Shown: positions 3,201 to 52,072, counted from the stretch's first letter. The stretch is DNA of 64,000 nt from a virus (IMGVR_UViG_3300012038_000181:1-64000), one strand, 5' to 3'. Numbers and translations: made by a program. Notes: a model not told the origin generated them from the letters alone.

Positions 3201-5595
3201 CGTCGCGGAGTATCAAGCGCAGAGTTCAGATATTACCTACGCCTACGCAGATGTTCCGCACGAAGGATTTATCAGTGCGCGTTCCAAGATGCACGGGATT
3301 GATTTGCTACCTCTACATGGCTACGTGTGCTTTCTCGATGATGACAACGTGTTGCTACCTCAGTATGTCGAGAAAATGGTTGGGGTGATCGTGCCCGATG
3401 AGAAAGAAGTAGCGATTGGGCAGGTTCAACTCCAGCGCGTTATCGACGGGGAGTACATGATTAAGACCGCTCCTCCCGATGCAAACTCGTTAGGGTTCTC
3501 AGATATTGACGCGCTGAACATTTTAGTAAAGAACGACATTGCTCGATTGTGTCGTGATGAATGGCACCAAGACAGAGACAAAGCAATCGACCATGACTTC
3601 CGCTTTATTCAGAAGTGCCTGACACATACGGGCTATGGATTCGTGCCTGAAGTAGTCGCCTTCCATCGGGACATGACTCGTGAGACTGCCAAAGTCTTTG
3701 ATTGCTTTCCCTTCTTTAATGAGTTGGACTTGTTGGAGATGAGGTTGAGTGAACTCGACAGCGTGGTGGATTACTTCGTTATCGTGGAAGCAAATCTGAC
3801 CCACAGTGGACAGCCAAAACCGTTGTACTTAGCGGAGAATATGGATCGGTTCAAGAAGTGGGAAAAGAAGATTGTGATTCAGGTAGTTGACTTGAGCACG
3901 ATAGAGTTTGCCAACTTTGACTTTGACCCTTGTTGGGTGCGTGAACATCTACAGCGAGATTCAGGGCGTGACGTTGTTAATCGGATGGCTAAGAAGGGAG
4001 ACTTCTGCATCGTCTCAGATGTAGATGAGATTCCCCGCGCTTCAGCGATACAAGAGTACATCGTGAGCGGGCAGTACGAAGTCGGGGTGTTGGCGCTCGA
4101 AAGATTCATGTACGCCCTAAACTATCGGAATGTGACCACCGATGAGCCACAGTTGAATGCCAAGATTATTCCTACGGATAAATTGCATGATCACAATCTG
4201 AATGACGTGCGCTTTGCGGATAAGGAAAGTATTTTCCCGACTCGTCGCATTGAGAACGGTGGGTGGCATTTTACTTTTCAAAATGGTTTAGACCAAGTGA
4301 TTGAAAAGGTGAAAGCGTTCGCACATCAGGAATATGCCGCACCGGAGAAGATAGACCACGAGCGCATGGAGATGCTGTTTCGTGAAGGCAAGGACGTGTA
4401 CTCCGCGAACACGACTTGGGAAACGGTTGAGATAGACGAAACATTTCCGCAGTACGTGAGAGAGCATGAAGATGAACTGCGGGCAAAGGGTTGGATTAAA
4501 CCGCGTGAGACGGGAACAGTAATTAAGCTAGAGGATTGGAAGCAGTCTCGCTTGACCGTTACGGCAGAAATCAGCACCAAAGATCGTTACCAAACCACGT
4601 TGCCGCTAACTATTAGCGCGATCATTAATCAAACTCACAAGCCTGAGAAACTAAAAATCTACGATGATGGCGAGCAAGCGAATCTCTTTGAACTTGCACC
4701 CTTCAGTGGTCTATTGCAGATGGCGATAGATAAAGGCATTGAAGTGGAAGTCTTGACCACGCCGCGCAAGGGCCAAGTAACTAATCATCAGCACTGCTTG
4801 GAAGTTGCCACGACAGATGTGATTTGGCGATGCGACGATGACAATATTCCTGAACCTGATTGCCTACACAATCTGCTTGCGGAAATGAAAGAGGGGGTAG
4901 GAGCTGTGGGAGGGCTGGTTCACCATCCAGGCGGTATTAGCCCATTACCCAAAGGCGTTGATGGCTCGTTAAATGATTTAGCGATGGGATTAAATATTGC
5001 GTGGTTTGATTGGAACAGCGGCCCGAAAGAGTGCGAGCACTTGTACTCGACATTTGCGTATAGAGTTTCATCAGCAAGGGAAGTTGGTGGCTATCCTCTT
5101 GATTTAAGCCCTTGCGGACACCGTGAGGAAAGCTGGCTCACTCATAAAATCCATCGAGCAGGGTACAAGGTAATTTGTACGCCCTACGCTCGTACCGCTC
5201 ACTTGAGAGAAGCAACGGGCGGCATCCGTACTTATACTGACCCCGCAATGTGGGAGCATGATGAGGGCTTGTTTCAAGCGTATCTACGAGCCATTGGGAA
5301 GGTAAGCCCGAAATCCAAAATGATGATTCTGGACATGGGCTTGGGTGATCATCTTGTGGCAAAGGCCGTGTTATCAGAGATTCGGAAACGCAACAACAAT
5401 CAACATCTCGTTATGGCGGTTTGTTTCCCAAGCGTGTTTGAAGAAGAACCCAACGTGACGTTGATTTCCATTGCGGACGCTAAGGCAATCGTGGGCCACG
5501 GCTACCAGAAACATAGTCTGTATGCTTGGATGTGGGATAATAATTGGGACGCACCGTTGGCTGACGCGATGGTGAAATTTTGGGGTGGTCAATGA
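214..5595 (+). CDS. Giant multi-domain glycosyltransferase: GT2 + unknown GT-A-like + GT2 + FkbM methyltransferase + GT2 + GT17-like + GT2 + GT9 N-half
   Basis: SIVIPT/LLLNND, SIIIPTYN/VLLNND, VIDIGANKG..LKIDCEGSE (FkbM), VIIPTY/FLDDDN, FDCFPFFNELDLLEMRL..DYFVIVE..THSG (GT17), WRCDDD, MGLGDHL motifs in order. Confidence 0.92.
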   Translation: MKPRYSIVIPTHKHLTDALIPCLQSIQKYTDLSDCEVLVIANGCGNDFTREFVQTLGAPFKLIWIDEQSGYTKSVNAGIRAAQGEYILLLNNDCQILDSPRNEWLETLVAPMADPQIGMVGIHELWSAEINSNFIVFYCALIRRSVFENIGLPNEIFSPGFGEDIDFCARLMRAGYRYANVDPTANQAGELCIGTFPLYHAGGKTFHDSAHDAGYKAIVERNLKILHNRYQPVKMLAVLVNFGVEGLNHLYQTIDSLKSFDSRYTVDIVVHSNVAVGRDDIREVIHSEAPWGDWLNLPWKCRETLHQERENYDLYLYAEHDHLFTQRNIDAFLEITPFLSDAQIAGFIEWENAPHGERFYPAWHADYGWGESFTNDAGTFAKFTNLHQGSFLATRRQLARAIAVGKEAFLDPQRRLFSSPYGIRERCNTDFYDTGFKKVIPVSRFEDFLIHHLSDHYYGVYGTKCDSEMNKALAELTERPEVSIIIPTYNHCDDLLRPCLESLRVNTDLAKTEILVVSNGCTDGTDAYVKSLGHPFKLISHRAQLGFTKATNIGLRAARGKYLVLLNNDTIIQGSDWIDLMKAPFLARHGVGASGPMKFIGKPDKSNDFIMMFCMMTTRAVVDDIGALDEQFAPGGVEDVDYGLRLLLAGYELVQVPENHAVAFEPDLSTGAFPIFHSGNATYRDEQGWHANLIRNNGRLKAKFPEYFKGLTWIEEMAVSEPQPLDFAMLHEHMKEADSWLHWEMFEVDVNQAKREELAGKTVIDIGANKGFFAIHALELGAKEVYCFEPVHEIYEQQLELVGDIPQVHSFNLAVLDGSVSEVHMHEAGVVSNIWGDPTTSPTPCVSLVTALSRVPDHSNMVLKIDCEGSEFEILFHTPANVIRQFSTIYVEMHDEMNPNFQHKTPELLSYLRSLGFTSEQGPQAATWLSDGSSEDSPVRIYKLRRHEQPRVTVIIPTYQRYGLLREALNSVREQTYRNICALVVADGPDVEVEQIVAEYQAQSSDITYAYADVPHEGFISARSKMHGIDLLPLHGYVCFLDDDNVLLPQYVEKMVGVIVPDEKEVAIGQVQLQRVIDGEYMIKTAPPDANSLGFSDIDALNILVKNDIARLCRDEWHQDRDKAIDHDFRFIQKCLTHTGYGFVPEVVAFHRDMTRETAKVFDCFPFFNELDLLEMRLSELDSVVDYFVIVEANLTHSGQPKPLYLAENMDRFKKWEKKIVIQVVDLSTIEFANFDFDPCWVREHLQRDSGRDVVNRMAKKGDFCIVSDVDEIPRASAIQEYIVSGQYEVGVLALERFMYALNYRNVTTDEPQLNAKIIPTDKLHDHNLNDVRFADKESIFPTRRIENGGWHFTFQNGLDQVIEKVKAFAHQEYAAPEKIDHERMEMLFREGKDVYSANTTWETVEIDETFPQYVREHEDELRAKGWIKPRETGTVIKLEDWKQSRLTVTAEISTKDRYQTTLPLTISAIINQTHKPEKLKIYDDGEQANLFELAPFSGLLQMAIDKGIEVEVLTTPRKGQVTNHQHCLEVATTDVIWRCDDDNIPEPDCLHNLLAEMKEGVGAVGGLVHHPGGISPLPKGVDGSLNDLAMGLNIAWFDWNSGPKECEHLYSTFAYRVSSAREVGGYPLDLSPCGHREESWLTHKIHRAGYKVICTPYARTAHLREATGGIRTYTDPAMWEHDEGLFQAYLRAIGKVSPKSKMMILDMGLGDHLVAKAVLSEIRKRNNNQHLVMAVCFPSVFEEEPNVTLISIADAKAIVGHGYQKHSLYAWMWDNNWDAPLADAMVKFWGGQ

Positions 5596-6533: not shown

Positions 6534-7013
6534 ATGGGCCTCTCAGACCAAAAACAAGAGTCAAAAGGGAAAACCGCTACCACGTCCACCGCTCAATACG
6601 GGTGGAAAGCACCACCGACCACGGCCTCATTAGATAAACTCCGTACTCAACAGTTTGAAATCGATCCAGGCATCGCAGCTCAATACGGGCAAGCACGCCA
6701 TGAACTAGAGCACAGTTTTAACCAACCTGCGGGCGCATATCTGCCCAAGCAAGTTCAGCAACAACAACTTCAGTCCGGCAAAGAGCGATTAGGTCGAGAC
6801 GAAGCCCAAGCTATGCGCCAAGGCCAATATGACGTTAATAAACTGAATTATAGTCGTGACCTTGCGGTTGCGGGCATGGATGCCCCGACCTTGACCCAAG
6901 ACCGCAGTGACTCTAGCGGCACATCGTCGGGCACGGTAGTACAGAGCGAATCCCCATTCAGGGTGGGCGCACAAATCGCGGGACAAGTAGCACCATTCGC
7001 AGCCAGTCTTTAG
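6534..7013 (+). CDS. Probable small internal virion (ejection/pilot) protein
   Basis: MG-S/K/T-rich N-terminus, Q/A-rich helical body, amphipathic C-terminus; follows the GNAT gene. Confidence 0.45.
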   Translation: MGLSDQKQESKGKTATTSTAQYGWKAPPTTASLDKLRTQQFEIDPGIAAQYGQARHELEHSFNQPAGAYLPKQVQQQQLQSGKERLGRDEAQAMRQGQYDVNKLNYSRDLAVAGMDAPTLTQDRSDSSGTSSGTVVQSESPFRVGAQIAGQVAPFAASL

Positions 7014-7023
7014 GAGACTCTTA

Positions 7024-7545
7024 ATGTCACCACCAATTAACAGCGCATACGCAACCCAACAGTTTAAGACTGATTCATACACAATCACCGTATCAGACGA
7101 TATTGTGCGGTTCACGCTGGCTGCTCCCGCGACTGCTACGCTGCCCTTTTCTCGCAACTGTTCGATAGTTTCAGGGCAGAACCAAAAGATTATTGCTAAC
7201 GGTGATTCAGGTGGTAATGACCTGACAATCGCGGTGGGTGCGGGCGACACGCTCATTGGAGAAACAACCTTGAGCGCGGGCGAGACAGCCTTTATTACTG
7301 GCGATGGAGTCTTGGTCTGGAATTCCATTGGCGCATCGGGCGTCACGGGAAATTCAGGTTACTCAGGCTACTCAGCATACTCAGGATATTCAGGTAAGAG
7401 TGGATTTAGTGGCATCTCTGGATTCTCTGGCTTCAGCGGCATCAGTGGCGCGAGCGGCAAGAGTGGATTCAGCGGTTACACCGGAATCTCTGGATTCAGC
7501 GGTTACTCAGGCACTACTGGTTACTCAGGTTATTCCAAAGCCTAG
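7024..7545 (+). CDS. Virion fibre/decoration protein with Gly-X-Ser repeat tail
   Basis: RBS AGGAG; KTDSYTIT..ATLP beta domain followed by ~23 G-X-S triplets. Confidence 0.7.
   Translation: MSPPINSAYATQQFKTDSYTITVSDDIVRFTLAAPATATLPFSRNCSIVSGQNQKIIANGDSGGNDLTIAVGAGDTLIGETTLSAGETAFITGDGVLVWNSIGASGVTGNSGYSGYSAYSGYSGKSGFSGISGFSGFSGISGASGKSGFSGYTGISGFSGYSGTTGYSGYSKA
7330..7539 (+). repeat. (Gly-X-Ser)n coding repeat, X mostly Y/F/I
   Basis: GYS/GFS/GIS triplets with varied codons. Confidence 0.85.
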
Positions 7546-10256: not shown

Positions 10257-12917
10257 ATGGCAAAAACCATCATAGAGGCGATAAATAGCGCATCGACTTA
10301 CCAGTTTGAAGGCGATACCGCGGAGTTACGGCTGTATCCAACTCAGACCTTTCTTGCTTCTACGGGGCAGATGGTCGGGCAAGGTTCGCCGTGGAACACT
10401 GAGAGTTGGTATTTACCCGTCACTTGTGATGTGCAGCCTACGGGCGTGCTTTATGTCCCATCCTTTGAAATAGATTCCACTACCGATGGTCAGCCGCGCA
10501 CTTCCAAATACATAGCAGCTTTATTTGACGAAGGTGGAGCTTATATAGGGCCATTCCCGTTAATGAATCCGAACGGGTTTGCCATTCCGCCTCCTGAACT
10601 GATGCCTACCCCGACGTGGGGGCAGTTACAGATTTACAACCGACTTCCTACGCTTCTCTATCCACCACAGACCTATCCGACGCGAGATGAGATGTACGCG
10701 GCGATTGCTGCTGCGCTCGGAGAACAAGGGCCAAAGGCGTCAGAAACCGTAGTCGGGATTACGGCGTTAAGCGAAGACCCGACAGACCCGCAGTTTCCGA
10801 TTGCGGTCTCAGTGACCGATCCTATATGGGAAGAATTTGTTGATGGTGGCCCTAACGCTTCCATCACGGTTAAGGGGCTTACCAAACTAGATGTTGCGCC
10901 TGCTAGTGCGACCGATCCTATCGCAGTTGGTGTTAATTCTCCTCGTGTGGCCCAAAAAGCCATTGTAGCTACAGGAGTCGAGGTGACGGATACGGCAGCA
11001 CTTCAGGCGGCTATTACGAGTTTAGGTGCCGCAGGTGGAGTGATCCGCACCCTAAGTTCACTTGCTACTCCGCTAAAAATTGATGGGACGGGAATCACAT
11101 TTCCGGCTTTAACTAACACAATCACATTTGAGGTGTTTGGGTATTGGGATTTGTCTGGTTCAGATCACACGCTGACCTTTCCCAATGGGGTAAATTGGGT
11201 CGGGCTTGGTGGAGCGGCAAATCTTCAATTTCAACACGCAGGCCCGACGGCGGGGATTATTCCGCCAACTGGTAATGTGACAACTCTGAAATTAACTGGA
11301 GCCAATAATCAGTTAATTCAAAATCTGGCTATTGATAGTTGTTCAGGAATTGGAATTTACATGGATGGAGTGAGTGCGTTAGGAGCACTCAAGACGCTGG
11401 AAAACGTAGCGGTTGTAGCATCTACAGCGGTGACTTCACAGCCGATTCAGATAGATGCTGTCTTTTGGGTTTGGATGCGCGATTGTTCATTCCTTTCGAC
11501 CTCGACATCGCTGCATTCAATACGGATTACGACATCTAGTGCTGCTCATAGTGCTGCGGGGTTGATCTACATTGACGATACCATAATTGCAGGGAAAGGA
11601 ATCAAGGTTGACGCGCAGGTAAATGTAAGCAGACAAGGAAATATATTCCTAACAAACGTACACGCTGAGTCGTTAAGCGACAGTTTACTCACCTTGGACG
11701 GAACGAATGGGCCAATCGCTAACATTGCGCTCAACCAAGTAGGCGTATCGGACTCGGTAAGCCTGCCCTATATTTTCAACGTAGTTGCTGGCCCTATAAA
11801 GAACATTTTCGTTAGAGACTCGGATAATTTAGCTACTGAAGCTGGAAGTACGCTGTGGGTTAATAACACAGCCAGCATAAATAATTTAGTCATTGAGGGC
11901 GGCAGAGATTTTGAATATGTGACGGGATGGTCGCTAGGAACCGCGCAACGTAATTACGTCTTAACGAGGGACGGACAAGTAGACAGTTCGTGGTTGGGTC
12001 AAGGCGCGGCCATGAGTCCGAGTTTAATTCCGTATACAAGTTTGGCGGTAAATCAAGACGCGTCAGCATGGGGTGGGTTGACAGGAACCGCGACGGTGAC
12101 TACTGGAATAATTGCTCCAGACGGTACAGCGACCGCCGCCACTCTTTCTTCTGCGGGCGGGGAACGCGCCCGTCGAGTGTATGCTGTGAGTGGCAGGTCA
12201 GCGGCTGTTGGTGATTGGGTTATGGTGGGTGTTTGGATGCGATCCGAAGACGCAACAGTCCCGTCTTATACTGGAAGCGTTTTTGCTACAAATTCAGGTA
12301 GCGGGCCAGCGACATTTGATTCAACCCTCACAACTCTGGGGCTGTCAAACGATCCTTCGCAAAGATTAAGCGCATCATGGGTTCCTGTTGTAGTGGCTGG
12401 CAAGATAACCACGTCACCCTCTGCGACTTATGATTTCATCATGGATTTGAAGTGTGATTCCACTCACCCGACTTCCTATTGGATGCCTTTTATTATTCAC
12501 ATTCCAGCGGCAACTTTGACAGATGCTGAAGTAATAAGGTTCAAACGGTATCTAACGAACGTGGTATCGAGTGTTCCTACAGGATCGTTGGCGATGTACC
12601 CGCACCAAAGTTTCTACGCGGGGAGGGTTATTTCGCAAGTCATTACCACCTTCGCAGACGCCGATACAACCCCCTCAGTGGCTGCCGGAAATGAGTTCAC
12701 GGCAACGAATACGGCCCCCACGTCCATCACTACGTTTGACGACGGAGTGAACGGTCAAACCATTACTATTCTTTTTACCAATGGTAATTCAACGATTGTT
12801 AATGGAGCGTCAGTCAAATTGTTGGCGGCAGGTAACTTTGTGGGTAGTGCCGACGATACCTTAACGCTCACACGTAGAGGCGGAACCTGGTACGAAATCG
12901 GAAGAAGCGTGAACTAG
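10257..12917 (+). CDS. Tailspike/tail fibre with pectin-lyase-like beta-helix
   Basis: Fibre motifs KASETVVGIT / NASITVKGLTKL, DTAALQAAI beta-helix cap, parallel beta-helix-like repeats, C-terminal ..TWYEIGRS domain; no signal peptide. Confidence 0.75.
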   Translation: MAKTIIEAINSASTYQFEGDTAELRLYPTQTFLASTGQMVGQGSPWNTESWYLPVTCDVQPTGVLYVPSFEIDSTTDGQPRTSKYIAALFDEGGAYIGPFPLMNPNGFAIPPPELMPTPTWGQLQIYNRLPTLLYPPQTYPTRDEMYAAIAAALGEQGPKASETVVGITALSEDPTDPQFPIAVSVTDPIWEEFVDGGPNASITVKGLTKLDVAPASATDPIAVGVNSPRVAQKAIVATGVEVTDTAALQAAITSLGAAGGVIRTLSSLATPLKIDGTGITFPALTNTITFEVFGYWDLSGSDHTLTFPNGVNWVGLGGAANLQFQHAGPTAGIIPPTGNVTTLKLTGANNQLIQNLAIDSCSGIGIYMDGVSALGALKTLENVAVVASTAVTSQPIQIDAVFWVWMRDCSFLSTSTSLHSIRITTSSAAHSAAGLIYIDDTIIAGKGIKVDAQVNVSRQGNIFLTNVHAESLSDSLLTLDGTNGPIANIALNQVGVSDSVSLPYIFNVVAGPIKNIFVRDSDNLATEAGSTLWVNNTASINNLVIEGGRDFEYVTGWSLGTAQRNYVLTRDGQVDSSWLGQGAAMSPSLIPYTSLAVNQDASAWGGLTGTATVTTGIIAPDGTATAATLSSAGGERARRVYAVSGRSAAVGDWVMVGVWMRSEDATVPSYTGSVFATNSGSGPATFDSTLTTLGLSNDPSQRLSASWVPVVVAGKITTSPSATYDFIMDLKCDSTHPTSYWMPFIIHIPAATLTDAEVIRFKRYLTNVVSSVPTGSLAMYPHQSFYAGRVISQVITTFADADTTPSVAAGNEFTATNTAPTSITTFDDGVNGQTITILFTNGNSTIVNGASVKLLAAGNFVGSADDTLTLTRRGGTWYEIGRSVN

Positions 12918-12925: not shown

Positions 12926-13255
12926 ATGAGATTCAAAGTTGTGCTGTTTACCGCAGTTTTGGTTACGTCATTATTTGTAGCTACAAGTGCTCAAGCACCT
13001 TCAGACCCGAAACTTGATGCTGATTCACAGGCGAAGTTGAAGGTTGCATTTGATAACTGGCAGAAGGCGTTAGAAGCGGCAGAAGTCGCTAAGTTGAGTT
13101 TCAATGCCACGATGTATCAGGTTATGGCTGAGGCGAAAGTAAGTCCAAAGGAATATCAGTTGTCGATTGAAAAAGGAGCGTTTGTGTTGACAAAGGTGGA
13201 AGTAGCTAAAGCCCCTGAAGTTCAGAAAGCCCCCGCGAATAAACCGAAGGAATAA
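12926..13255 (+). CDS. Secreted helical protein (Sec signal peptide)
   Basis: MRFKVVLFTAVLVTSLFVATSA-Q; charged helical body. Confidence 0.7.
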   Translation: MRFKVVLFTAVLVTSLFVATSAQAPSDPKLDADSQAKLKVAFDNWQKALEAAEVAKLSFNATMYQVMAEAKVSPKEYQLSIEKGAFVLTKVEVAKAPEVQKAPANKPKE

Positions 13256-13259
13256 TGTA

Positions 13260-14585
13260 ATGAAAAGACTTCTCTTGCTCGTTCTCTTACTTGTTTGTCC
13301 CTTGATTGCGGAAGCGCAAGTCACTTCTACTCCAGTGGTTTTTGTAACTGTTGCTCCCACAGTTTGCCAACCCAAGAAGCTCTACTCGCTCACTACAAAT
13401 GGAAATCTCTATGAGCGTTTAGGCTCATCGGGCACCGCTTGTACCTTGATAGTGAACGCTGCGGGAGGCGTGATTTCGGGATCAGGTACTACCAACACAA
13501 TGACTAAGTGGACGAGCGCAACTGCGTTGGGAAACGCCTTAATGACTGATGATGGCTCGCTTATCGTGGCGGCTGTTACGCCAACTACGGGGAATGGATT
13601 TACAGTATCCGGCGCAACCGTTACTTCAGGCAACTTAGTTTCCATTGCTGCGTCAGGCACGGCAGCGGCGAGTAACACCAAGACCGCTTTGAGTGTCGCC
13701 ACGAGCGGAGCAAATGCAACGAACGCGATGACTACGTTTGGAGCGGTGATCTCCAATACAAGTACTAACGGTACATCGGGAACTAACGTCGCGCTTCAGT
13801 TGACTGCTAGTGGGGCCACCACCGCGAACACTGCGCTGAATATTACCGCAGGGCAAATCCTTGGAGCCGATGGTACGGCGGCGAGTCCTGAATATAGTTT
13901 CGGGACTGAGACCGGAATGGGCATGACTAGAACCAGTTCAGGCATTCTAGGCTTCTATGTCTCAGGTATTCGTCAGTTTGATATTCGAGCGGCGGGAGCT
14001 GTCTATATCCCGCTGAATACAGCGACATTTTCTTTGGGAACTAACGCGGATGTCAGGCTTTCTCGACAAGCTGACGGGGTACTTCAGATAGGCGCGGCAG
14101 CAGGTAACGCCACAGGCTCGCTACTAGCCACCAACGGGACTTTTACTGGCACTATTACTAACGCGGGCATTGCATCTGATGCGGCAACCACTAACAATAC
14201 AGTTTGCACAACTACGACCACGAATGTCTTTACAAAAGGATCGGGCGTCGGAGGTTTGTGTTTGGGTACGTCATCGGCTCGATTCAAGAATCACATTCAG
14301 GGTCTTACTGATGGCCTTGCGGTCGTTACGCAACTTCAGCCGAAACGATTCTTTTACAATAAAGGTTATGGTAACTCAGGGGCTAAAGAGAGTATCGGGT
14401 TTGTTGCTGAAGATGTTCAGAAGATTGCTCCACGATTGGTAGCATTAGACGCTAAGGGGCAACCATCATCCGTAGATTATCTCGGCATAGTGCCAATGCT
14501 GGTCAACGCGATCAGGGAGCAGCAAGCCGAGATTCAGTTACTCAAGCAGCAAGTAAAGTCTTTGACGCGCAAGCGTAAGCATTGA
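13260..14585 (+). CDS. Fibre-like protein with signal peptide and C-terminal peptidase S74 intramolecular chaperone domain
   Basis: MKRLLLLVLLLVCPLIAEA-Q; T/A/S/G-rich shaft; TSSARFKNHI..IGFVAEDV..VDYLGIVPMLVNAIREQQ coiled-coil end. Confidence 0.85.
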   Translation: MKRLLLLVLLLVCPLIAEAQVTSTPVVFVTVAPTVCQPKKLYSLTTNGNLYERLGSSGTACTLIVNAAGGVISGSGTTNTMTKWTSATALGNALMTDDGSLIVAAVTPTTGNGFTVSGATVTSGNLVSIAASGTAAASNTKTALSVATSGANATNAMTTFGAVISNTSTNGTSGTNVALQLTASGATTANTALNITAGQILGADGTAASPEYSFGTETGMGMTRTSSGILGFYVSGIRQFDIRAAGAVYIPLNTATFSLGTNADVRLSRQADGVLQIGAAAGNATGSLLATNGTFTGTITNAGIASDAATTNNTVCTTTTTNVFTKGSGVGGLCLGTSSARFKNHIQGLTDGLAVVTQLQPKRFFYNKGYGNSGAKESIGFVAEDVQKIAPRLVALDAKGQPSSVDYLGIVPMLVNAIREQQAEIQLLKQQVKSLTRKRKH

Positions 14586-14611
14586 CGTACCCGTAGGCAT
14601 AGGCGTAGGAT
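14582..14611 (+). promoter_or_regulatory. Sigma70-type promoter TTGACG-18-TAGGAT
   Basis: Read directly; spacer carries TAGG hexamer repeats; 10 nt before ATG 14622. Confidence 0.6.
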
Positions 14612-14621
14612 GGTTTTTGAA

Positions 14622-14783
14622 ATGCCCTATACAAGTAAAACCATCTCGCTTCACCACCAAGTTTGGGAGTTCCTTGAGTGCCAGAAAAAGGTGTATGGAT
14701 CGTACAACAAGGCGTTGAAAGCACTGCTCATTGACAAGCCAAAGGTTAGCAAGCGAGACAAAAAGAAAGAGGAAATAAAATGA
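14622..14783 (+). CDS. Small ribbon-helix-helix-like DNA-binding protein (53 aa, below the ORF track cutoff)
   Basis: MPYTSKTISLHHQVWEFLECQKKVYGSYNKALKALL; stop overlaps ATG of 14780. Confidence 0.55.
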   Translation: MPYTSKTISLHHQVWEFLECQKKVYGSYNKALKALLIDKPKVSKRDKKKEEIK

Positions 14784-15373
14784 AGGCTCTTTTGCTCGTA
14801 CTCGCGTTTGCTTTACCAATCTTTGCTCAAGAATCCAATGTCCACGTCGCAGGTGTCTTGCAAGCGACTGCTAACTTAGGTTTCGGTAATCCAATCTACG
14901 GCGCACAAGTCGGTGGAGATTATCGCATCAACAAGGTAGTGCTCTCAGGTGACTTCTCAGTGTTACGGCTCAAGAAGAACGTAGGCGGCTCAGGAATGCA
15001 GTTTACCGCCAAAGAGGGCGTCAGGGTCTACCTCAACAAGAAGTTCTTCGTGCAAGGCGTCTCGCGTCAATGGAAGTATGATGTAGAGCAATTCGGTAAG
15101 TCAGGAGTAGATATTGGTGGTGGAGGAGGGGTTTTCTTTCTCGGTGAAAATATGGCAGGGACGTTTGCTGCTAACTATTTACACAACGTCCACGAGACAC
15201 AGCGACCAAGTGGAGTGGATTCCAAGCAGAAAACGGTTGACGCAGAGTTACGATTGTACCTTCAGCATCATGTGTTCTTCGCGCCAAGGTTAGCGGTCTC
15301 AAGATTCAAGTCAGGAAACACGAATTTGACGGGCGTGAGTGTCGCGGTACAAGTTGGATTCTGGTTTAAGTAG
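14780..15373 (+). CDS. Outer-membrane beta-barrel protein candidate
   Basis: Signal peptide IFA-Q; alternating amphipathic strands; C-terminal VAVQVGFWFK resembles a beta-signal. Confidence 0.7.
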   Translation: MKALLLVLAFALPIFAQESNVHVAGVLQATANLGFGNPIYGAQVGGDYRINKVVLSGDFSVLRLKKNVGGSGMQFTAKEGVRVYLNKKFFVQGVSRQWKYDVEQFGKSGVDIGGGGGVFFLGENMAGTFAANYLHNVHETQRPSGVDSKQKTVDAELRLYLQHHVFFAPRLAVSRFKSGNTNLTGVSVAVQVGFWFK

Positions 15374-15385
15374 GTTACTGAGAAT

Positions 15386-16717
15386 ATGAAGAACTTTCTC
15401 GTTGGCGTAATCCTAATCTTGGCTGCTAGTGGGGCCGCGTATTCTCAAGCTAGGACTGCAAGCCAAATTCAAACTGCCCCGTTTTCGCAACTGACTACCG
15501 ACCTTCCTTCGGCCACAGTTCGTGTCTGTATTAACTGCCAAGCAAATGCGGCTACGGGTGTTTGTGAAAGTGGCGCGTACCAGATGGTGGCAACGAGACT
15601 TGACGATGCATGGAAGTGTACGAAGTACGATCCGAACGAGAACGGCGGTGGCATTTGGGGTTCAATTACAGGAACGCTCTCTAATCAAACCGACCTGCAA
15701 ACCGCCTTAAACCTGAAAGCGACGTTAGCAAGTCCCACGTTTACGGGAACAGTAACGATTCCAACTCCGTTTACTTTGGCAGCGGTGTCGGTTTTACCGA
15801 CCGGAACAGAGTTGAATTTTGTTGACGGGGTTACGTCTGCGATTCAAACCCAACTCGATGCGAAGACGCCTACATCGCGCACTGTTTCCACGTCTAGTCC
15901 ACTTGGGGGCGGTGGAGCGTTATCGGGCAATCTTACGCTGACTTGCGCTACATGTGTCACTAGTGCTGCACCCTTGACCTCTACCGCGTTAGTTACGGGC
16001 GCAGGCAGTCAGGGGTCACAAACTCCTTCTGCGACCGCTACACTTGATTCCAGCGGTAATCTCTCTACGGCAGGCTCACTAGCTACGGGCGTTGGCGGGG
16101 CAGTGGCGGGGAATATTGGGTTAGGTCAGGGAACCGCTACTAGTGTGGCTGTAAATACCATTCAGCATCAGGCTCCAACAAGCGTAACGGGTTACAATTT
16201 AGTTTATCCTTCAGCAGCAGGTTCGGGACTCCTTCAGTGGACTAATTCAACCGACGTAATGACTGGTACGTTAAGCGCGTTGACTTCAGGGCGTGTTACC
16301 TTCGCTACGACGAATGGGCTGCTCTCCGATGATGCTGACTTAACCTTCGCTACCGACACACTTACTGCTACTAAGATTATTGGTTCTACGAGTGCTACGT
16401 CAGCAACTTACCTTACGGCAACCAACTGTGCGGATTCAGCAGGGGCAGCGGCTTGTGGTTCAGCGGCAGCAGGTAGCGTGGTAATTGATGCAGCAGGGAC
16501 TTCCGTGGTCGTCAGCACGACTGCCGTAACCGCGAACAGTCAGATTTTTATTCAGGAAGATTCATCGCTCAACACACGACTAAGCGTGACTTGTAATACT
16601 GTTACCGGACGACTCTACACGGTTACGGCACGCACGGCGGCAACGTCATTCACAATTACTACGAGTGCCGCTCCAATAACTGATCCCGCTTGTTTGAGTT
16701 ATAAAATTGTCAACTAA
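15386..16717 (+). CDS. Tail-fibre-like protein with Sec signal peptide
   Basis: AYS-Q cleavage; phage fibre motifs WGSITGTLSNQTDLQTALN, LASPTFTGTVT, LNFVDGVTSAIQTQLDAK. Confidence 0.75.
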   Translation: MKNFLVGVILILAASGAAYSQARTASQIQTAPFSQLTTDLPSATVRVCINCQANAATGVCESGAYQMVATRLDDAWKCTKYDPNENGGGIWGSITGTLSNQTDLQTALNLKATLASPTFTGTVTIPTPFTLAAVSVLPTGTELNFVDGVTSAIQTQLDAKTPTSRTVSTSSPLGGGGALSGNLTLTCATCVTSAAPLTSTALVTGAGSQGSQTPSATATLDSSGNLSTAGSLATGVGGAVAGNIGLGQGTATSVAVNTIQHQAPTSVTGYNLVYPSAAGSGLLQWTNSTDVMTGTLSALTSGRVTFATTNGLLSDDADLTFATDTLTATKIIGSTSATSATYLTATNCADSAGAAACGSAAAGSVVIDAAGTSVVVSTTAVTANSQIFIQEDSSLNTRLSVTCNTVTGRLYTVTARTAATSFTITTSAAPITDPACLSYKIVN

Positions 16718-16724
16718 GGAGATT

Positions 16725-17132
16725 ATGAGAAAAAGCGCGATATTCATTGGTGCCATCTTCCTGCTTAGTGCGGGCGTCTACGCTCAACAAACAGGTTCAC
16801 TAGTCTGGAATCCGAAAGGAGCTGTGACTACAATCGACGCGCCCGCGAGTGGGACTTTCACGTTTACGCTGCCAGGAAAGTCGGGGACGTTTGCGCTGCT
16901 CTCGGACATCCCAACTACGTTACCGACTCCCGTTCCTGCTCCAAGCGTCCCGCAATACTTTGGCGCAGTGGTTTTGGTGAATGGGACGGGCTCAGTGACG
17001 TTTGCTACGGCAGTAAGTGGATGTCGAGTGTCGGATAGAAGTGGTAATTCGGTGAAGTACGGCCCGACTGCTAATGCGGCTATCTGGCAATTCTCTGGAG
17101 TTGGCCCAACCGTTGATTATGAGTGTCGCTAA
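16725..17132 (+). CDS. Small secreted fibre-associated protein
   Basis: RBS AAGGAG; MRKSAIFIGAIFLLSAGVYA-Q; TFTLPGKSGTFALLSDIP fibre motif. Confidence 0.7.
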   Translation: MRKSAIFIGAIFLLSAGVYAQQTGSLVWNPKGAVTTIDAPASGTFTFTLPGKSGTFALLSDIPTTLPTPVPAPSVPQYFGAVVLVNGTGSVTFATAVSGCRVSDRSGNSVKYGPTANAAIWQFSGVGPTVDYECR

Positions 17133-17141
17133 TTGCCAACC

Positions 17142-19688
17142 ATGAGAAGTTTCTTTGCGCTAACCATTCTCCTGCTCGTTAGTACGGCTGCTTACGGACA
17201 TGGAGTAAGGAAGTCTCCTCCCGTAGTCTTTGCCTGCACGGGTTCGTCACCTGCGCTTTCCGCGCCCGACACGGGCAATGCAGTTACCAACGGAGCGAAC
17301 TTCCAACTGTGTATCAACGCCGCAGTTTTAGGTGATACGATCACACTTACCGCAGGAGCTACTTACAACAGCCCGACAGCAGCAGAAGGATTCAGGTTTC
17401 CCAACAAGGGCGCAGGCAGCACGTACATCAACATCGTTTCTTCCAATCCCGCGTCTAGACCCACTGACCTTTCTACCTATCCCTCGCTTGATCCGGCCAC
17501 AGGCTATCCGCGTCGTGTGACCACAGCAGAAGCAGTAGGGATGCCTAAGCTAGTAGGCACAGATGAAGGTTATCCTGCTCTGTTCTTTAATCTGAGTTCG
17601 CATCACTACAACTTGGTTGGCTTAGAAGTAACCAACGCAACAGGGATTCAGTACCAAGTAGGTTTGATTAGAACCGGAGGCGGTGGGCAGGAATCCGTCT
17701 TTTCTGATTTCTCTCATCATTTAATCTTCGATTATCTGTATGTCCATCCGTGGGAGAACGCGAGTCCGACCGAAGACTATGAATACGGTTCAGTAGAAAA
17801 AGCGTTTCTGCTTAATGGTTATGACTTCACAATCACCCATTGTGCAGTTCAAGGATTCACAGGTTATAGCGAGTCAAATCACGCTCTGCGACTCGACACT
17901 AACGCAATCCTAATCGGCTCAGGTACAGGTGATATTCTGATTCAAAACAACCTGTTGGAGTCGATGGCGAATAACATCTTCACAGGTGGTTCGGGAGGCA
18001 TGATTAACCCCACCCACGCCACCACGATTACCGGAGCGGTCATCACTCAAGCAGGAGGCTCTTTTACTACTACGTTAGCGAGTACCACCGACTTAGAAGT
18101 GGGTGATTTCTTTGCTATCTACAACGAGAATATCAACGGACGGGGAAATTGTAATCCGGCTTATCAGGGTGGAATTGTGGGCTGTATCTCACCTCCCTCC
18201 AACGCAAAGATTACAGCAATTAATCACGGCACCGGAGTAGTTACTGCTTCTGGTGGTCTAAGAATGAACTTAGGCTACCGCAAGAACTACATCAACATCT
18301 TCAATTCGTCGGGTAGCTATCCAGCGGGCATGAGTGGCACCTTTACTCTGACGTGGGAAGGACAAACCACAGGCCCGATTACTTACTCATCGACCAAAGC
18401 AACGCTGATGTCGAACATCTCGACCGCGCTCATTGCGCTCTCGAATGTTGACGCGGCAGACTTTCAGATGGTGGACGATCCCGATTGGGGTGTCTATGTA
18501 AACTTTGGTGAGTATTCAGCCATCGTCGGAGCTACTTGTCCTTCGGTAGATCAGTTCTGTGGAGACACTTGGGCCTATCCCGCAACCATGACGGAGATGA
18601 CTGGTAACGGCGCAGGGCTAACGGGTGGTACTTCCCCGACGCTGTACGTTCACTGGAAAGGTCAAGAGTACGGTAGCGGGCTACGCACTGAGGCAGGAGA
18701 CGAGCCGGACAATGGTTCAGAAGCATGGTGGGAAGGTTATGGGCTGAATAACATTCAGATGAAGCAGAACATCATTGCCAAGTACGATGCTTGGTATCAG
18801 TGGCAGGGAGCGCAGAAAGGGTATCTAGAGTTCAAAGCCGGAACTAACATGCTACTGGATGGGAACCTGTTCTTCTGGGACGGAGATGATGAACCGCAAG
18901 GGCCGGGCGCGTTAGTTCTAACTCCTCATCAGGACGGCGGCTGTACGTGGTGCGTGATCACCGATTTGACTGTCTCGAATAATTGGTTTCAAACAGGTGG
19001 GTTTGCAGGGATGCAGTTGCAGGACGCGATTTGGTGGGGGCCAATTTCAGAGAATATTATCTTCACTAATAATCTACAGACCGCACCCCAAACAGGTTCA
19101 CAGCCAGAGTTTGCTTCGGCTATGTCATCGGGTTACATGACGATGACTCACAATACTTTTCTGTTGGGTAACACAAGATTCATTCAAGGCTATAGCGCGA
19201 TGGACGGGGATAGTGGTTCGGCTACGAACATCATCAGAGACAACATTGTGCGAGCGGGTACAGGGCTGTACTGCTTAATACCGTTACCTGCTCCTGGTCA
19301 AGCCGATGACTGTTGGCCTGGTTCAACTAGTGAGAACAGGCAGAACTTACTCATAGACGATCAAGGATGGATTGGGCCATTTAGCAATCCGTTTGCAGAG
19401 TATTGGACGCAATGGGCTGACTTCTGGCCCACGCAGTTCTACAACAACTCGATTAGCAATATTAAGTTTGTGAACGCTCCCGCAACCTTCGGAACGAAGT
19501 ATGGTAACTACCGACTACAAGCCGATAGTCCCTATCACAACGCAGCGAGTGACGGAACAGATGTAGGAGTAGACTTCGATGCAATGGCGGTAGCTGCGGG
19601 TGTTAATTGGTTTCCCACATCAGCGTCGCTTGGTAGCGTAGGGGTTTCGGGCAAAGTTTCCGTTGGGGGGCGCGTCATCATCAAGTGA
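17142..19688 (+). CDS. Secreted right-handed beta-helix (polysaccharide lyase/hydrolase-like) protein
   Basis: MRSFFALTILLLVSTAAYG signal; GDTITLTAGATY cap; N-ladder repeats; C-term NYRLQADSPYHNAASDGTDVG. Confidence 0.72.
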   Translation: MRSFFALTILLLVSTAAYGHGVRKSPPVVFACTGSSPALSAPDTGNAVTNGANFQLCINAAVLGDTITLTAGATYNSPTAAEGFRFPNKGAGSTYINIVSSNPASRPTDLSTYPSLDPATGYPRRVTTAEAVGMPKLVGTDEGYPALFFNLSSHHYNLVGLEVTNATGIQYQVGLIRTGGGGQESVFSDFSHHLIFDYLYVHPWENASPTEDYEYGSVEKAFLLNGYDFTITHCAVQGFTGYSESNHALRLDTNAILIGSGTGDILIQNNLLESMANNIFTGGSGGMINPTHATTITGAVITQAGGSFTTTLASTTDLEVGDFFAIYNENINGRGNCNPAYQGGIVGCISPPSNAKITAINHGTGVVTASGGLRMNLGYRKNYINIFNSSGSYPAGMSGTFTLTWEGQTTGPITYSSTKATLMSNISTALIALSNVDAADFQMVDDPDWGVYVNFGEYSAIVGATCPSVDQFCGDTWAYPATMTEMTGNGAGLTGGTSPTLYVHWKGQEYGSGLRTEAGDEPDNGSEAWWEGYGLNNIQMKQNIIAKYDAWYQWQGAQKGYLEFKAGTNMLLDGNLFFWDGDDEPQGPGALVLTPHQDGGCTWCVITDLTVSNNWFQTGGFAGMQLQDAIWWGPISENIIFTNNLQTAPQTGSQPEFASAMSSGYMTMTHNTFLLGNTRFIQGYSAMDGDSGSATNIIRDNIVRAGTGLYCLIPLPAPGQADDCWPGSTSENRQNLLIDDQGWIGPFSNPFAEYWTQWADFWPTQFYNNSISNIKFVNAPATFGTKYGNYRLQADSPYHNAASDGTDVGVDFDAMAVAAGVNWFPTSASLGSVGVSGKVSVGGRVIIK

Positions 19689-20915: not shown

Positions 20916-21155
20916 TTAGTGATTCACGTAACAGCCGACTTGATTCATGCAACTGCGATACTCCTGCACTTCGTAGTAGTGGCAGTAATCAAAACCGTGT
21001 TCAACGCGACAGATCGCAAAGTTGATCTCCGCTACTGCGTTACAAGCCGTGTGCTGTGTCTCACAGAAGTTATCCGCTGCGACGGGTGCAGGGGCTAAAG
21101 AGGTAGCGATAAAAGCTACTACCAAGAGCGTGAAGATTAAGAGTGGTCGTTTCAT
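20916..21155 (-). CDS. Small secreted six-cysteine protein
   Basis: Signal peptide MKRPLLIFTLLVVAFIATSLA; 6 Cys in the mature part; RBS AAAGG. Confidence 0.7.
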   Translation of the reverse strand: MKRPLLIFTLLVVAFIATSLAPAPVAADNFCETQHTACNAVAEINFAICRVEHGFDYCHYYEVQEYRSCMNQVGCYVNH

Positions 21156-30305: not shown

Positions 30306-30492
30306 TTATTTCCTCTTGGTCAGCCCCTACGCATTCAGCGCAAAGGGAATCGGGCGAACAATGTTCATTAGGCCACACACCAACATCATAAACATCTTCA
30401 AAAACGCGCCAAGGTTCCTGCTCACCGTACTGAGAGGTTTCAACCTCACGGCGGGATAGATCGTCAACAAGGGACTTAGTTGATTGGTACAT
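30295..30492 (-). CDS. Hypothetical acidic protein
   Basis: Coupled overlaps; C..CAEC. Confidence 0.5.
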   Translation of the reverse strand: MYQSTKSLVDDLSRREVETSQYGEQEPWRVFEDVYDVGVWPNEHCSPDSLCAECVGADQEEINAT

Positions 30493-30758
30493 TACGCGGC
30501 GTCTCCTTTCACCTCGACACATTTCGCCCCCTTACAGCCCTCAAGCGCATCGAACATCTCTTGAATCTTGATTACCTCTCGCTTGCCGTTCCACTCTACG
30601 GTTATCGTCTCAGCCACGTTAAGCACCAAGAGAAAGTCCGCTTGTGGCGCAGGGGGAGCAGTGATAGTGATGGTGTCAGCCTTTAGTTTCTGCGCTTGGG
30701 CGGTCATGCTTCCGACCATCACGGCAAATAACGCTTGTACTGCGGTTCTTCGATTCAT
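30492..30758 (-). CDS. Small exported protein
   Basis: MNRRTAVQALFAVMVGSMTAQA-Q signal with an RR pair. Confidence 0.6.
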   Translation of the reverse strand: MNRRTAVQALFAVMVGSMTAQAQKLKADTITITAPPAPQADFLLVLNVAETITVEWNGKREVIKIQEMFDALEGCKGAKCVEVKGDAA

Positions 30759-51793: not shown

Positions 51794-52072
51794 ATGCAGA
51801 CCTCACCACTCCGCAACGGCGACAAACTTCCCGATCATCCCGACTCCACTACCTCTCTAACAGTAACCAAATACGGACGAGTCTTTGACGCGACTGATGG
51901 GCTAGAGTTGCTGCCTAATCTCCATCGAACTGAACAGATGATGCTCAAGGGTGGAGAGCGTGGTGGTCTAAGTCACATGTACCGCTATGCAGTCATTGAT
52001 GGTCGGATTTATCACACGAGACCAAGTGTTATAATCATGGTAGAGACCACTGATGCCGAAACTGACTCGTGA
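51794..52072 (+). CDS. Hypothetical protein
   Basis: Packed ORF. Confidence 0.5.
   Translation: MQTSPLRNGDKLPDHPDSTTSLTVTKYGRVFDATDGLELLPNLHRTEQMMLKGGERGGLSHMYRYAVIDGRIYHTRPSVIIMVETTDAETDS

What the first reader, a model, noticed from the sequence alone, without database searches (positions are those of the whole stretch)
12926..19688. Phage tail-fibre-like proteins carrying Sec signal peptides: a possible exported fibre/adhesin system
Seen: six genes (12926, 13260, 14780, 15386, 16725, 17142; only a 53-aa RHH gene interrupts the run) begin with n-h-c signal peptides, five with Gln at +1 after the AxA-like site. Two are built from phage fibre motifs, one ends in an S74 trimer autochaperone, one is an OM barrel and one a beta-helix enzyme. 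The adjacent tailspike (10257) has no signal. Knowledge: tailed virions assemble in the cytoplasm, so exported fibres should not reach the particle before lysis; +1 Gln (pyroglutamate) is typical of some diderm phyla. Inference: either fibres fold in the periplasm and join virions at lysis, or the phage builds a cell-surface adhesin/receptor-masking structure on its host. Strongest candidate for an undescribed system, possibly tied to the GT.
Basis: partly seen in the sequence, partly recalled or inferred. Interest (0 to 1): 0.82.

Follow-up and report, generated by a model that had tools for sequence, protein, structure and literature searches.

The report
Phage tail-fibre genes carrying export signals
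An uncultured freshwater-sediment phage puts ordinary bacterial secretion signals on six neighbouring late genes (two fibres, a short fibre-like protein, a large sugar-cutting-type enzyme, an outer-membrane barrel and a small helper), so its host-recognition gear very probably matures outside the cytoplasm where tailed phages are thought to build all their parts.

Summary
Six + strand genes in a row (12926-19688) start with n-h-c leaders, five with Gln at +1. Only about five of some 100 other ORFs of this 72.5-kb phage do.

The S74 chaperone is confirmed by Pfam. The barrel is confirmed by an AF2 model (pLDDT 92, 10 strands, OpcA Z 18.9). The fibre motifs are confirmed. The "beta-helix enzyme" is only probable. 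"RHH" and the link to the GT are unsupported.

The leaders are conserved in a related phage. In at least four phage lineages the barrel family travels with leader-bearing S74 fibres, leader-bearing large enzymes and a small leader-bearing helical protein. About 40% of a 98-member fibre family carry such leaders.

Two cultured Cellulophaga phages (phi18:3, phi10:1) have leader-bearing fibre and pectate-lyase proteins that their records call virion proteins by MS/MS. I checked the leaders myself.

Best reading (about 0.4): the receptor-binding proteins are exported, mature in the periplasm and meet the particle at lysis; the barrel and the helper stay in the envelope. The main rival (about 0.3): they act on the infected cell's own surface.

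The host is unknown: Gln+1 points to the FCB group, Shine-Dalgarno use and the lack of sequon enrichment do not. This scan has found leader-bearing phage fibres before on other DNA. I found no printed description.

The parts
10257..12917 (+). Leaderless tailspike (886 aa). Context and control for the block.
   Evidence: No leader. The N-terminal 195 aa are 79% identical to the relative's tailspike, the rest is unrelated. The last ~88 aa are 58% identical to the C-terminus of the L017 tailspike.
12926..13255 (+). Small exported helical protein (109 aa, leader 1-22, Pro/Lys-rich tail).
   Evidence: Leader. Weak but repeated similarity to leader-bearing small proteins next to the barrel in L006 (E 1e-5) and L008 (E 7e-5). 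A look-alike small leader protein family lies beside leader fibres in L007, L011, L016 and L018. No family hit.
13260..14585 (+). Exported fibre with a C-terminal S74 intramolecular chaperone (441 aa, leader 1-19).
   Evidence: PF13884 at 338-394, E 1.1e-10. Tail-fibre PHROGs. SSARFK at residue 338. The orthologue in the relative keeps a leader of different sequence.
14622..14783 (+). Small leaderless ORF (53 aa; 57 aa if started at 14610). Its stop overlaps the barrel start.
   Evidence: Conserved in the relative at 61% identity. No family hit, so the RHH reading is pattern only.
14780..15373 (+). Ten-stranded outer-membrane beta-barrel (197 aa, leader 1-16).
   Evidence: AF2 pLDDT 91.9. OpcA Z 18.9 and pOmpT Z 17.7. 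41 family representatives among 1.8e9 proteins. In the 30-sequence alignment Gln is nearly invariant at +1, and most members end in an aromatic-rich G-x-W-F-like motif. 36 of 40 family members of 150-260 aa have a leader-like start followed by [AGSC]Q.
15386..16717 (+). Exported fibre (443 aa, leader 1-20). Cys-rich N-domain, fibre repeat, and a C-terminus weakly like K1-lyase_C.
   Evidence: phrog_25379 at E 4.6e-8; PF24146 at E 2.5e-4, below its cutoff. The N-terminal part (about 250-300 aa) is 68% identical to the relative's fibre, the C-terminus is replaced.
16725..17132 (+). Short exported fibre-like protein (135 aa, leader 1-20).
   Evidence: Leader. 74% identical to the relative's 137-aa protein. 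Weak PHROG hit, virion structural protein, E 0.003.
17142..19688 (+). Large exported protein (848 aa, leader 1-19), probably a right-handed beta-helix carbohydrate-active enzyme.
   Evidence: Homologues P0005 (51% identity, phage contig next to an SU10-type adaptor), P0007 and P0012 have leaders, P0006 has none. PF13229 is found only on the homologue P0007. ESM Atlas leads. Weak PL6 alginate lyase hit, E 0.0014.

Best explanation
The block is a conserved set of Sec / signal-peptidase-I substrates at the distal end of the late (tail) operon of an uncultured 72.5-kb phage from freshwater sediment.

Four products are receptor-binding-type proteins: an S74 fibre, a second fibre, a short fibre-like protein and a large probable beta-helix enzyme. 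Two are envelope proteins: a 10-stranded outer-membrane barrel and a small helical periplasmic protein.

Proposed course:
1. The genes are made late and pass unfolded through SecYEG.
2. The leader is cut before Gln, which the host probably cyclises to pyroglutamate.
3. The fibres and the enzyme fold, oxidise and trimerise in the periplasm. The S74 domain then cuts itself off.
4. The barrel is inserted into the outer membrane.
5. When holin, the GH19 endolysin and the spanin-like genes (35.5-37.7 kb) open the envelope, the matured receptor-binding proteins meet the cytoplasm-built particles and dock as accessory host-recognition parts. This would be a two-compartment assembly.
6. The barrel and the small protein stay in the host envelope. 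Their role (staging site or superinfection exclusion) is open.

Shown: the leaders, their conservation, the domain content and the recurrence of the module.

Inferred: export itself (about 0.9), periplasmic maturation, and attachment to virions (about 0.4).
For: - **Leaders.** They are present on 6 of 7 consecutive genes against about 5% elsewhere in the genome.
- **Packing.** Tiny intergenic gaps (4-36 nt) leave no room for later starts.
- **Conservation.** The relative phage keeps a hydrophobic leader-like N-terminus on all five orthologues, four of them with an AxA-like site before Gln; the enzyme's looks more like a signal anchor. The leader sequences themselves differ.
- **Barrel family.** 36 of 40 members have a leader plus [AGSC]Q.
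- **Recurrence.** Leader-bearing S74 fibres and leader-bearing large enzymes lie beside the barrel in L008 and L011.
- **Fibre family.** 42 of 98 proteins are leader-like, 35 of them with [AGSC]Q, against 5 of 56 leaderless members.
- **Architecture.** After the leader the proteins have full virion-fibre architecture. Their conserved N-domains and swapped C-termini match the pattern of the leaderless tailspike.
- **Same families with and without leaders.** The L009 fibre has none. L018:6155-8962 is a leader-bearing orthologue of the tailspike N-domain.
- **Divergence.** The block diverges like host-range genes (26-74% identity) while the GT upstream is 95% identical.
- **Cultured analogues.** Cellulophaga phage phi18:3 gp085-087 and phi10:1 gp091-094 have leaders with Gln+1. 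Their records call them virion, structural or tail proteins 'based on experimental MS/MS proteomics'.
- **From established knowledge.** P22 heads accept purified tailspikes in vitro, so docking after lysis is chemically plausible.
Against: - No tailed phage is known to assemble this way.
- No experiment or trained predictor was available here.
- This phage already has a leaderless tailspike and collagen-like fibres, so the exported set is not needed for a complete particle.
- The barrel, an integral membrane protein, sits in the middle of the block and cannot be a virion part.
- The MS/MS annotations could reflect co-purified envelope material, and those phages are unrelated to this one.
- Cys counts in the mature parts are not consistently even.
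- An earlier, separately checked case in this scan priced the virion-attachment reading at about 10%.
Confidence: 0.4

Rival explanations
1. The exported proteins act only on the infected cell's own envelope. The enzyme degrades nascent or surface polysaccharide receptor. The fibres and the barrel bind or mask receptors. The result is superinfection exclusion and protection of progeny from sticking to debris. None of them becomes part of the particle.
For: - The barrel and the small periplasmic protein must work in the envelope, and they sit inside the block.
- The barrel family always lies beside receptor-binding genes, on either strand. From knowledge, known exclusion genes (T5 llp, phi80 cor, lambda lom) also lie next to tail-fibre genes.
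- In the relative, the leader-bearing fibre shares a 130-aa C-terminal domain (57% identity) with that phage's own leaderless tailspike.
- Exported tailspike-like enzymes exist in bacteria (WceF, PMC7949094, title and abstract only).
Against: - In this window the exported proteins share no detectable domain with the leaderless tailspike.
- Long fibres with S74 chaperones and conserved N-domains are costly for mere masking.
- No route across the outer membrane is evident, and there is no T9SS C-terminal domain.
- Leader-bearing analogues are annotated as virion proteins by MS/MS in two cultured phages.
Confidence: 0.3
2. A phage-borne cell-surface adhesin system. The barrel anchors or translocates the trimeric fibres, which decorate the host surface like Bdellovibrio MAT fibres, for example as a conversion trait.
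For: - MAT fibres combine a signal peptide, a trimeric fibre and S74, and they sit on the cell surface (PMC10769870).
- Barrel and leader-bearing fibres co-occur in the window, its relative, L008 and L011.
- The conserved Cys-rich N-domains could be anchors.
Against: - No integrase was found among the ten large ORFs of the window scanned with Pfam.
- Leader-bearing fibres occur without this barrel in L016-L018.
- The barrel occurs with leaderless fibres in L009 and L012.
- A 10-strand barrel without a periplasmic or passenger part has no known translocator role.
- The N-domains here are 50-65 aa, not the ~130-aa MAT domain.
Confidence: 0.1
3. Diffusible goods. The enzyme (and perhaps the fibres) is exported only so that it folds in an oxidising compartment. 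It is then set free at lysis as a soluble depolymerase that strips neighbouring cells or releases sugars.
For: - Most homologues of the enzyme carry leaders, and the distant ones (P0008-P0018) do not look phage-borne by sequence and domain content, though their contexts were not examined.
- From knowledge, free depolymerase is a known by-product of phage infection.
- Prophage CAZymes with signal peptides have been catalogued (PMC13507307, abstract only).
Against: It does not explain non-enzymatic fibres with conserved N-domains, nor the barrel. The position and the mosaic evolution are those of receptor-binding genes.
Confidence: 0.1
4. The hydrophobic N-termini are not working export signals. 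They would be mis-called starts, or temporary inner-membrane tethers of cytoplasmic proteins.
For: No trained predictor or experiment was available. The relative's enzyme has a less typical, anchor-like start.
Against: - Gaps of 4-36 nt leave no alternative starts.
- n-h-c design and an AxA-like site before Gln recur across divergent orthologues and families.
- One of the six is a bona fide outer-membrane barrel that needs Sec.
Confidence: 0.05

Closest known systems
Leader-bearing virion proteins of cultured Cellulophaga baltica phages (phi18:3 gp085-087; phi10:1 gp091-095)
   Same: Runs of adjacent fibre, pectate-lyase and tail proteins start with Sec-type leaders and Gln at +1. In phi10:1 they lie at the distal end of the tail module; in phi18:3 they lie just upstream of the lysis genes, apart from the main structural module. 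Seven of them are annotated as virion proteins from MS/MS.
   Different: There is no detectable sequence kinship with this phage. No barrel of this family was looked for there. The leaders are not discussed in any paper I could find. The host there is a known Bacteroidota; here it is unknown.
Bdellovibrio bacteriovorus MAT (mosaic adhesive trimer) fibres, Caulton et al. 2024 (PMC10769870)
   Same: A signal peptide, then a conserved N-domain, then a long trimeric phage-like fibre with a swappable tip, often ending in a self-cleaving S74 chaperone. These fibres work outside the cytoplasm.
   Different: MAT fibres are chromosomal genes of a predator, about 1000 aa long, with a ~130-aa N-domain. 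Here the genes are phage late genes of 135-848 aa with 50-65-aa Cys-rich N-domains. They lie beside a tailspike and a phage-borne barrel.
Phage outer-membrane morons and exclusion proteins next to tail-fibre genes (lambda Lom/Bor, T5 Llp, phi80 Cor)
   Same: A small exported envelope protein encoded among or beside receptor-binding genes. BFVD holds many small phage barrels, with TM about 0.6 to this one.
   Different: Lom is an 8-stranded Ail/Lom barrel, and Llp and Cor are lipoproteins. This is a 10-stranded, OpcA-like barrel with no Pfam or NCBIfam hit. It comes with a small helical periplasmic partner.
Q-rule signal-peptide genes of Porphyromonas gingivalis phages (Matrishin et al. 2023, PMC10367356)
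   Same: Phage genes whose leaders expose Gln after cleavage, read as adaptation to the host's secretion system.
   Different: Those are five genes of unknown function, and tail parts are not mentioned. Here the leaders sit on recognisable fibres, an S74 fibre and a tailspike-type enzyme.
Pantoea stewartii WceF, an exported bacterial enzyme with a tailspike fold (PMC7949094)
   Same: A tailspike-like glycan-modifying enzyme that works outside the cytoplasm (title and abstract).
   Different: It is bacterial and lies in an EPS biosynthesis locus. I ran no sequence comparison.

Membership tests
Sec / signal peptidase I substrates | Positively charged n-region, 7-15-residue hydrophobic h-region, small residues at -3 and -1 | tested here: met
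   All six pass the heuristic, against about 5 of 102 other ORFs. The cleavage sites were read by eye.
Sec / signal peptidase I substrates | Call by a trained predictor (SignalP or similar), or experimental cleavage | not testable with these tools
   No predictor or proteomics for this phage was available.
Peptidase_S74 intramolecular chaperone fibres | Pfam PF13884 above its gathering score, at the C-terminus of a fibre | tested here: met
   42 bits against a cutoff of 22, residues 338-394 of 441.
Peptidase_S74 intramolecular chaperone fibres | Ser-Lys dyad in an S-x4-K motif at the cleavage site | tested here: met
   SSARFK at residue 338. Asp at position 2 of the SDxxxK consensus quoted in PMC10769870 is replaced by Ser.
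Peptidase_S74 intramolecular chaperone fibres | Autoproteolysis after trimerisation | not testable with these tools
   This needs expression of the protein.
Outer-membrane beta-barrel, 10-stranded (OpcA / omptin-like fold) | Leader plus a closed antiparallel barrel with an even number of strands | tested here: met
   AF2 pLDDT 91.9, 10 strands. OpcA Z 18.9 with rmsd 2.5 over 179 residues; pOmpT Z 17.7.
Outer-membrane beta-barrel, 10-stranded (OpcA / omptin-like fold) | Aromatic C-terminal strand (BAM signal) | tested here: met
   The 30-sequence consensus ends in VGxWF and most members end in an aromatic-rich G-x-W-F-like motif; the window protein ends in VGFWFK.
Ail/Lom family (lambda Lom) | Pfam Ail_Lom / OMP_b-brl match and 8 strands | tested here: not met
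   No Pfam or NCBIfam hit. The model has 10 strands.
Bdellovibrio MAT fibres | Conserved ~130-aa beta-rich domain right after the signal peptide | not tested
   MAT sequences were not at hand. The N-domains here are only about 50-65 aa.
Bacteroidota Q-rule substrates | Gln at +1 after signal peptidase I cleavage | tested here: met
   5 of 6 here. 36 of 40 barrel relatives and 35 of 42 leader-bearing fibres have [AGSC]Q.
Bacteroidota Q-rule substrates | Host in Bacteroidota (or another high-Q group) | tested here: inconclusive
   - SD-like motifs precede 31 of 62 genes.
- The D[ST][AILVMT] sequon is not enriched: 3 seen against 7.4 expected.
- MAG labels of related contigs disagree.
- Ignavibacterium also has a high Q-value (PMC5837995).
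Type IX secretion cargo | C-terminal sorting domain | tested here: inconclusive
   No Pfam or NCBIfam hit on any of the six. The enzyme family does share a short C-terminal G-K-x-x-V-G-G-[KR] tail.
Right-handed beta-helix depolymerase / tailspike | Beta_helix (PF13229) or pectate-lyase repeats on the protein itself | tested here: inconclusive
   There is none on the window protein. PF13229 is found on homologue P0007 at E 4.9e-7. ESM Atlas leads score 0.83-0.87.

The most novel reading that the evidence does not exclude
Some tailed phages build their particle in two compartments. The head and core tail form in the cytoplasm. The receptor-binding fibres and enzymes go through Sec, are trimmed (pyroGlu), oxidised and trimerised in the periplasm, possibly on a phage-encoded outer-membrane barrel with a small periplasmic partner as a staging site. 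They dock only once the holin breaches the inner membrane.
Probability: 0.3. Interest if true: 0.85.

Novelty: new variant of a known kind. Interest (0 to 1): 0.68.

Why it matters
Textbook tailed-phage assembly is wholly cytoplasmic. A widespread class of receptor-binding proteins that matures in the periplasm would add a step to that pathway. It would also explain how such parts gain disulfides and blocked N-termini, and it would tie host range to the host's secretion and lysis machinery.

It matters practically in two ways. Fibres and depolymerases of such phages may need export to fold when they are expressed for biotechnology. Annotation pipelines that call leader-bearing proteins 'non-structural' would mislabel them.

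The question can be tested now in cultured Cellulophaga phages. If the rival reading is right, the block is instead a new kind of receptor-directed exclusion module encoded beside the receptor-binding genes.

Tried and rejected
- **T9SS C-terminal domain or any NCBIfam/Pfam family on the six:** nothing beyond S74 and a sub-threshold K1-lyase_C.
- **Bacteroidota O-glycosylation sequon:** not enriched, 3 seen against 7.4 expected.
- **Even Cys counts as a disulfide signature:** not consistent, with 11, 9, 15, 7 and 13 in some members. Cys density is only modestly higher than in leaderless neighbours.
- **Promoter and terminator scan of 9.5-21.5 kb:** fewer sites than in shuffles, so there is no evidence for an own transcription unit. 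One weak site lies at 14582-14611.
- **Host identification:**
  - TerL has only remote hits in isolated phages.
  - The barrel and the fibre core have no match among 50,697 phage records.
  - The genome-contig scan gave three MAG contigs labelled with three different groups.
  - There are no tRNAs.
  - Relatives cannot be drawn for a virus record.
- **PDB by sequence:** nothing for the tailspike and the fibre; for the enzyme only marginal hits (E 0.001-0.002) to a tail tip cage, a tail tube and a PL6 alginate lyase.
- **Expression:** no RNA holder is listed among public runs.
- **Laid contigs:** they show only that the same sequence occurs in several freshwater-sediment runs.
- **First barrel model from 4 sequences:** poor (pLDDT 57) and superseded.
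- **Kinship with Cellulophaga phage phi18:3:** none detectable.

Full report
**Setting**

The window is bases 1-64000 of a 72,532-bp IMG/VR virus record rated 97% complete. It has a large terminase at 52053-54098 (phrog_38) and very few other PHROG hits. A 1793-aa multi-glycosyltransferase lies at 214-5595. Collagen-like fibres lie at 7024 and 8120. Three antisense HNH genes are present. A leaderless 886-aa tailspike lies at 10257-12917. A lysis region with a GH19 endolysin lies around 35.5-37.7 kb.

No integrase was found among the ten large ORFs of the window scanned with Pfam. The same sequence occurs, without differences, in contigs of several freshwater-sediment metagenomes. No isolated phage is close.

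**The observation**

A simple n-h-c heuristic applied to all 109 non-overlapping ORFs of the record flags all six. Outside the block it flags five others. These include a lipobox protein in the lysis region, a membrane anchor and two small proteins of the early region.

Six of seven genes in a row at a background rate of about 5% is, by my estimate, of the order of 1e-5, even allowing for position. The gaps between the genes are 4-36 nt, and the 53-aa ORF overlaps the barrel start. Later start codons are therefore not credible. Gln follows the predicted cut in five of the six.

Checks on the individual proteins:
- The S74 domain is solid: PF13884, 42 bits against a cutoff of 22, with SSARFK at its start.
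- Protein 15386 carries a classical fibre repeat (phrog_25379) and a sub-threshold K1-lyase_C end.
- Protein 16725 has only a weak PHROG hit.
- The barrel had no family hit. HMMER against 1.8 billion representatives found 41 relatives of about 190 aa.
- With 30 of those relatives, AF2 gave a 10-stranded barrel at pLDDT 91.9. Its best solved neighbours are OpcA (Z 18.9) and pOmpT (Z 17.7). Foldseek lists only outer-membrane barrels, and BFVD lists small uncharacterised phage barrels.
- The 848-aa protein is only probably a beta-helix enzyme. It has no Pfam hit itself. PF13229 is present on one homologue. It has weak ESM Atlas leads and a marginal PL6 alginate lyase hit.
- 'RHH' for the small ORF is unverified.

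**Conservation**

One related phage (IMGVR_UViG_3300027743_000002) has the same block after its tailspike:
- an S74 fibre,
- the small ORF,
- the barrel (69% identity),
- the 137-aa protein (74%),
- the fibre (68% over the N-terminal part, with the C-terminus replaced),
- an enzyme that is only 26-33% identical.

All five orthologues of the exported proteins start with a hydrophobic leader-like segment, four of them with an AxA-like site before Gln, although the leader sequences differ. The enzyme's N-terminus looks more like a signal anchor. The 109-aa gene was not found there.

The glycosyltransferase upstream is 95% identical between the two phages. The block therefore diverges and recombines like host-range genes.

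In the relative, the leader-bearing fibre and the leaderless tailspike share a 130-aa C-terminal domain at 57% identity. In the window no such sharing is seen.

**Recurrence in other phage lineages**

All barrel relatives whose contexts I could read lie in phage-like contigs at the border between tail-fibre genes and early genes.
- In L008 and L011 the barrel and a small leader-bearing protein are convergent with a leader-bearing S74 fibre (726 aa and about 850-917 aa by start) and a leader-bearing 836/1013-aa protein.
- In L009/L010 and L012 the barrel follows leaderless fibres.
- The L009 fibre is the same family as the L008 and L011 S74 fibres (56-69% identity) but starts where their mature parts start.

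The small helical protein 12926 is weakly but repeatedly similar to the small leader-bearing proteins of L006 and L008. A second, look-alike small family lies directly next to leader-bearing fibres or the barrel in L007, L011, L016 and L018.

A word-based search with the L008 fibre found 98 fibres that share a conserved core. Of these, 42 have leader-like starts, and 35 of those have [AGSC]Q just after the hydrophobic run. Only 5 of the 56 leaderless members have that dipeptide in the same kind of window. Many sit on 63-76-kb contigs.

In L016 and L017 the leader-bearing fibre is the gene right after a leaderless tailspike. In L018 a 935-aa protein with a leader shares the N-terminal domain of the leaderless tailspikes (E 1e-5 to 4e-4, at matching positions).

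A 51%-identical homologue of the enzyme, with a leader, lies just upstream of an SU10-type adaptor in yet another phage contig. It follows another leader-bearing protein.

**What is known**

- Exported S74 fibres exist in bacteria. The 21 MAT fibres of Bdellovibrio have a signal peptide, a conserved N-domain and a trimeric fibre. Thirteen end in S74, and they sit on the predator's surface (PMC10769870).
- The Q-rule is characteristic of Bacteroidetes. High values also occur in Ignavibacterium and some Chlorobi (PMC5837995).
- Porphyromonas phages carry five Q-rule genes of unknown function (PMC10367356).
- I found no paper describing Sec leaders on tail fibres or tailspikes.

**Earlier notes of this scan**

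A word search returned 407 earlier notes in at least 365 genomes that hold all of its words. The eight shown all describe phage fibre or tail proteins with export signals on other DNA, and they pointed to cultured Cellulophaga phages. I tested that lead.
- In phi18:3 (NC_021794), gp085, gp086 and gp087 start MKNKITIIMILMSISFGYS|Q, MKKTIYILSILLLTISGVSA|Q and MKHTFSIVLFFILSIGLNA|Q. The record labels them virion, structural and tail protein 'based on experimental MS/MS proteomics analysis'.
- In phi10:1 (NC_021802), gp091-094 likewise have such leaders and carry the same MS/MS note. gp095 also has such a leader but is annotated as pectate lyase by similarity only.
- These phages share no detectable sequence with the present one.

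This is the only experimental hint on the fate of such proteins. It favours association with particles, with the caveat that envelope vesicles can co-purify. One earlier case in this scan was re-priced by a later check at about 10% for the virion-attachment reading. I keep my own odds moderate.

**Host**

Gln+1 suggests the FCB group. However, SD-like motifs precede half of the genes, which from my knowledge is atypical of Bacteroidota. The Bacteroidota O-glycosylation sequon is not enriched in the six proteins. MAG labels of related contigs disagree. The host stays open. The habitat is freshwater sediment.

**Reading**

Export of the six is very likely (about 0.9). One is an outer-membrane barrel that cannot reach its place otherwise, and the leader design is conserved where the sequence is not.

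For the four receptor-binding-type proteins I favour, at about 0.4, maturation in the periplasm followed by docking to particles when the envelope is opened. The grounds are as follows:
- full fibre architecture after the leader;
- conserved N-domains with swapped tips;
- the same families with and without leaders;
- a leader on a tailspike orthologue;
- the high frequency of leaders in the fibre family;
- the Cellulophaga MS/MS annotations;
- the known ability of tailspikes to bind heads in vitro (knowledge).

The chief rival, at about 0.3, is action on the infected cell's own envelope, as receptor destruction or masking, or exclusion.

The barrel and the small helical protein behave as a mobile pair that also accompanies leaderless fibres. 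I do not count the six as one proven system. The link to the glycosyltransferase is unsupported.

**Verdict**

This is a further, well-equipped instance of a phenomenon that appears unreported in print. Here it comes with a new 10-stranded phage barrel family and a small periplasmic partner.

Noticed in passing
window 20916-21155 (-) and 30492-30758 (-): Two further small leader-bearing ORFs lie in the early region. One is a 79-aa Cys-rich protein. The other is an 88-aa protein whose leader ends in TAQA|QKL. The phage therefore exports more than the late block.
   Followed up: no
window 17142-19688; P0006, P0007; L004:12112-14286: The enzyme family shares a conserved C-terminal end: ...SPYxNAASDGTDxGVxF... 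followed by a short G-K-V-x-V-G-G-[KR]-V-x-x tail. No family matches this tail and its role is unknown.
   Followed up: partly
L005:755-2128 and L005:2125-4560: In an SU10-adaptor-type phage contig, two adjacent leader-bearing proteins both end in a C-N-W-x(3-6)-C-N motif. This could be a shared C-terminal disulfide loop or a sorting tag.
   Followed up: no
P0064-P0161 (alignment A4, roughly residues 120-225 of the L008 fibre, per the invariant columns): A ~100-aa core (SPRGI..Q...GAR..F.KARGT...GD.LG...F.GYDG..Y...) is nearly invariant across 98 metagenomic fibres whose N-termini are otherwise unrelated. It has no Pfam name.
   Followed up: partly
L004:17745-18803 (-): The related phage carries a 352-aa TnpB-like (IS200/IS605-type, by sequence pattern) gene in its early region. 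It is absent from the window at the matching place.
   Followed up: no
window 6534-7013; L011:18684-19139; L017:5219-5521; L009:2330-2551: A small Gln/Ser/Thr-rich protein just upstream of the receptor-binding genes is shared (38-54% identity) by several of the phages that carry the barrel or the leader-bearing fibres. This suggests that they form one broad uncultured phage group with genomes of 63-76 kb.
   Followed up: partly
L016:12470-12874 (-) and L017:12094-12504 (-): Homologous 134/136-aa leader-bearing, probably membrane-embedded proteins lie convergent to the leader-bearing fibre in two phages that lack the barrel family.
   Followed up: no
window 214-5595 vs L003:436-5802: The 1793-aa multi-glycosyltransferase is 95% identical between the two phages, whereas the receptor-binding region is 26-79% identical. 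That is a sharp drop in conservation within about 5 kb.
   Followed up: partly
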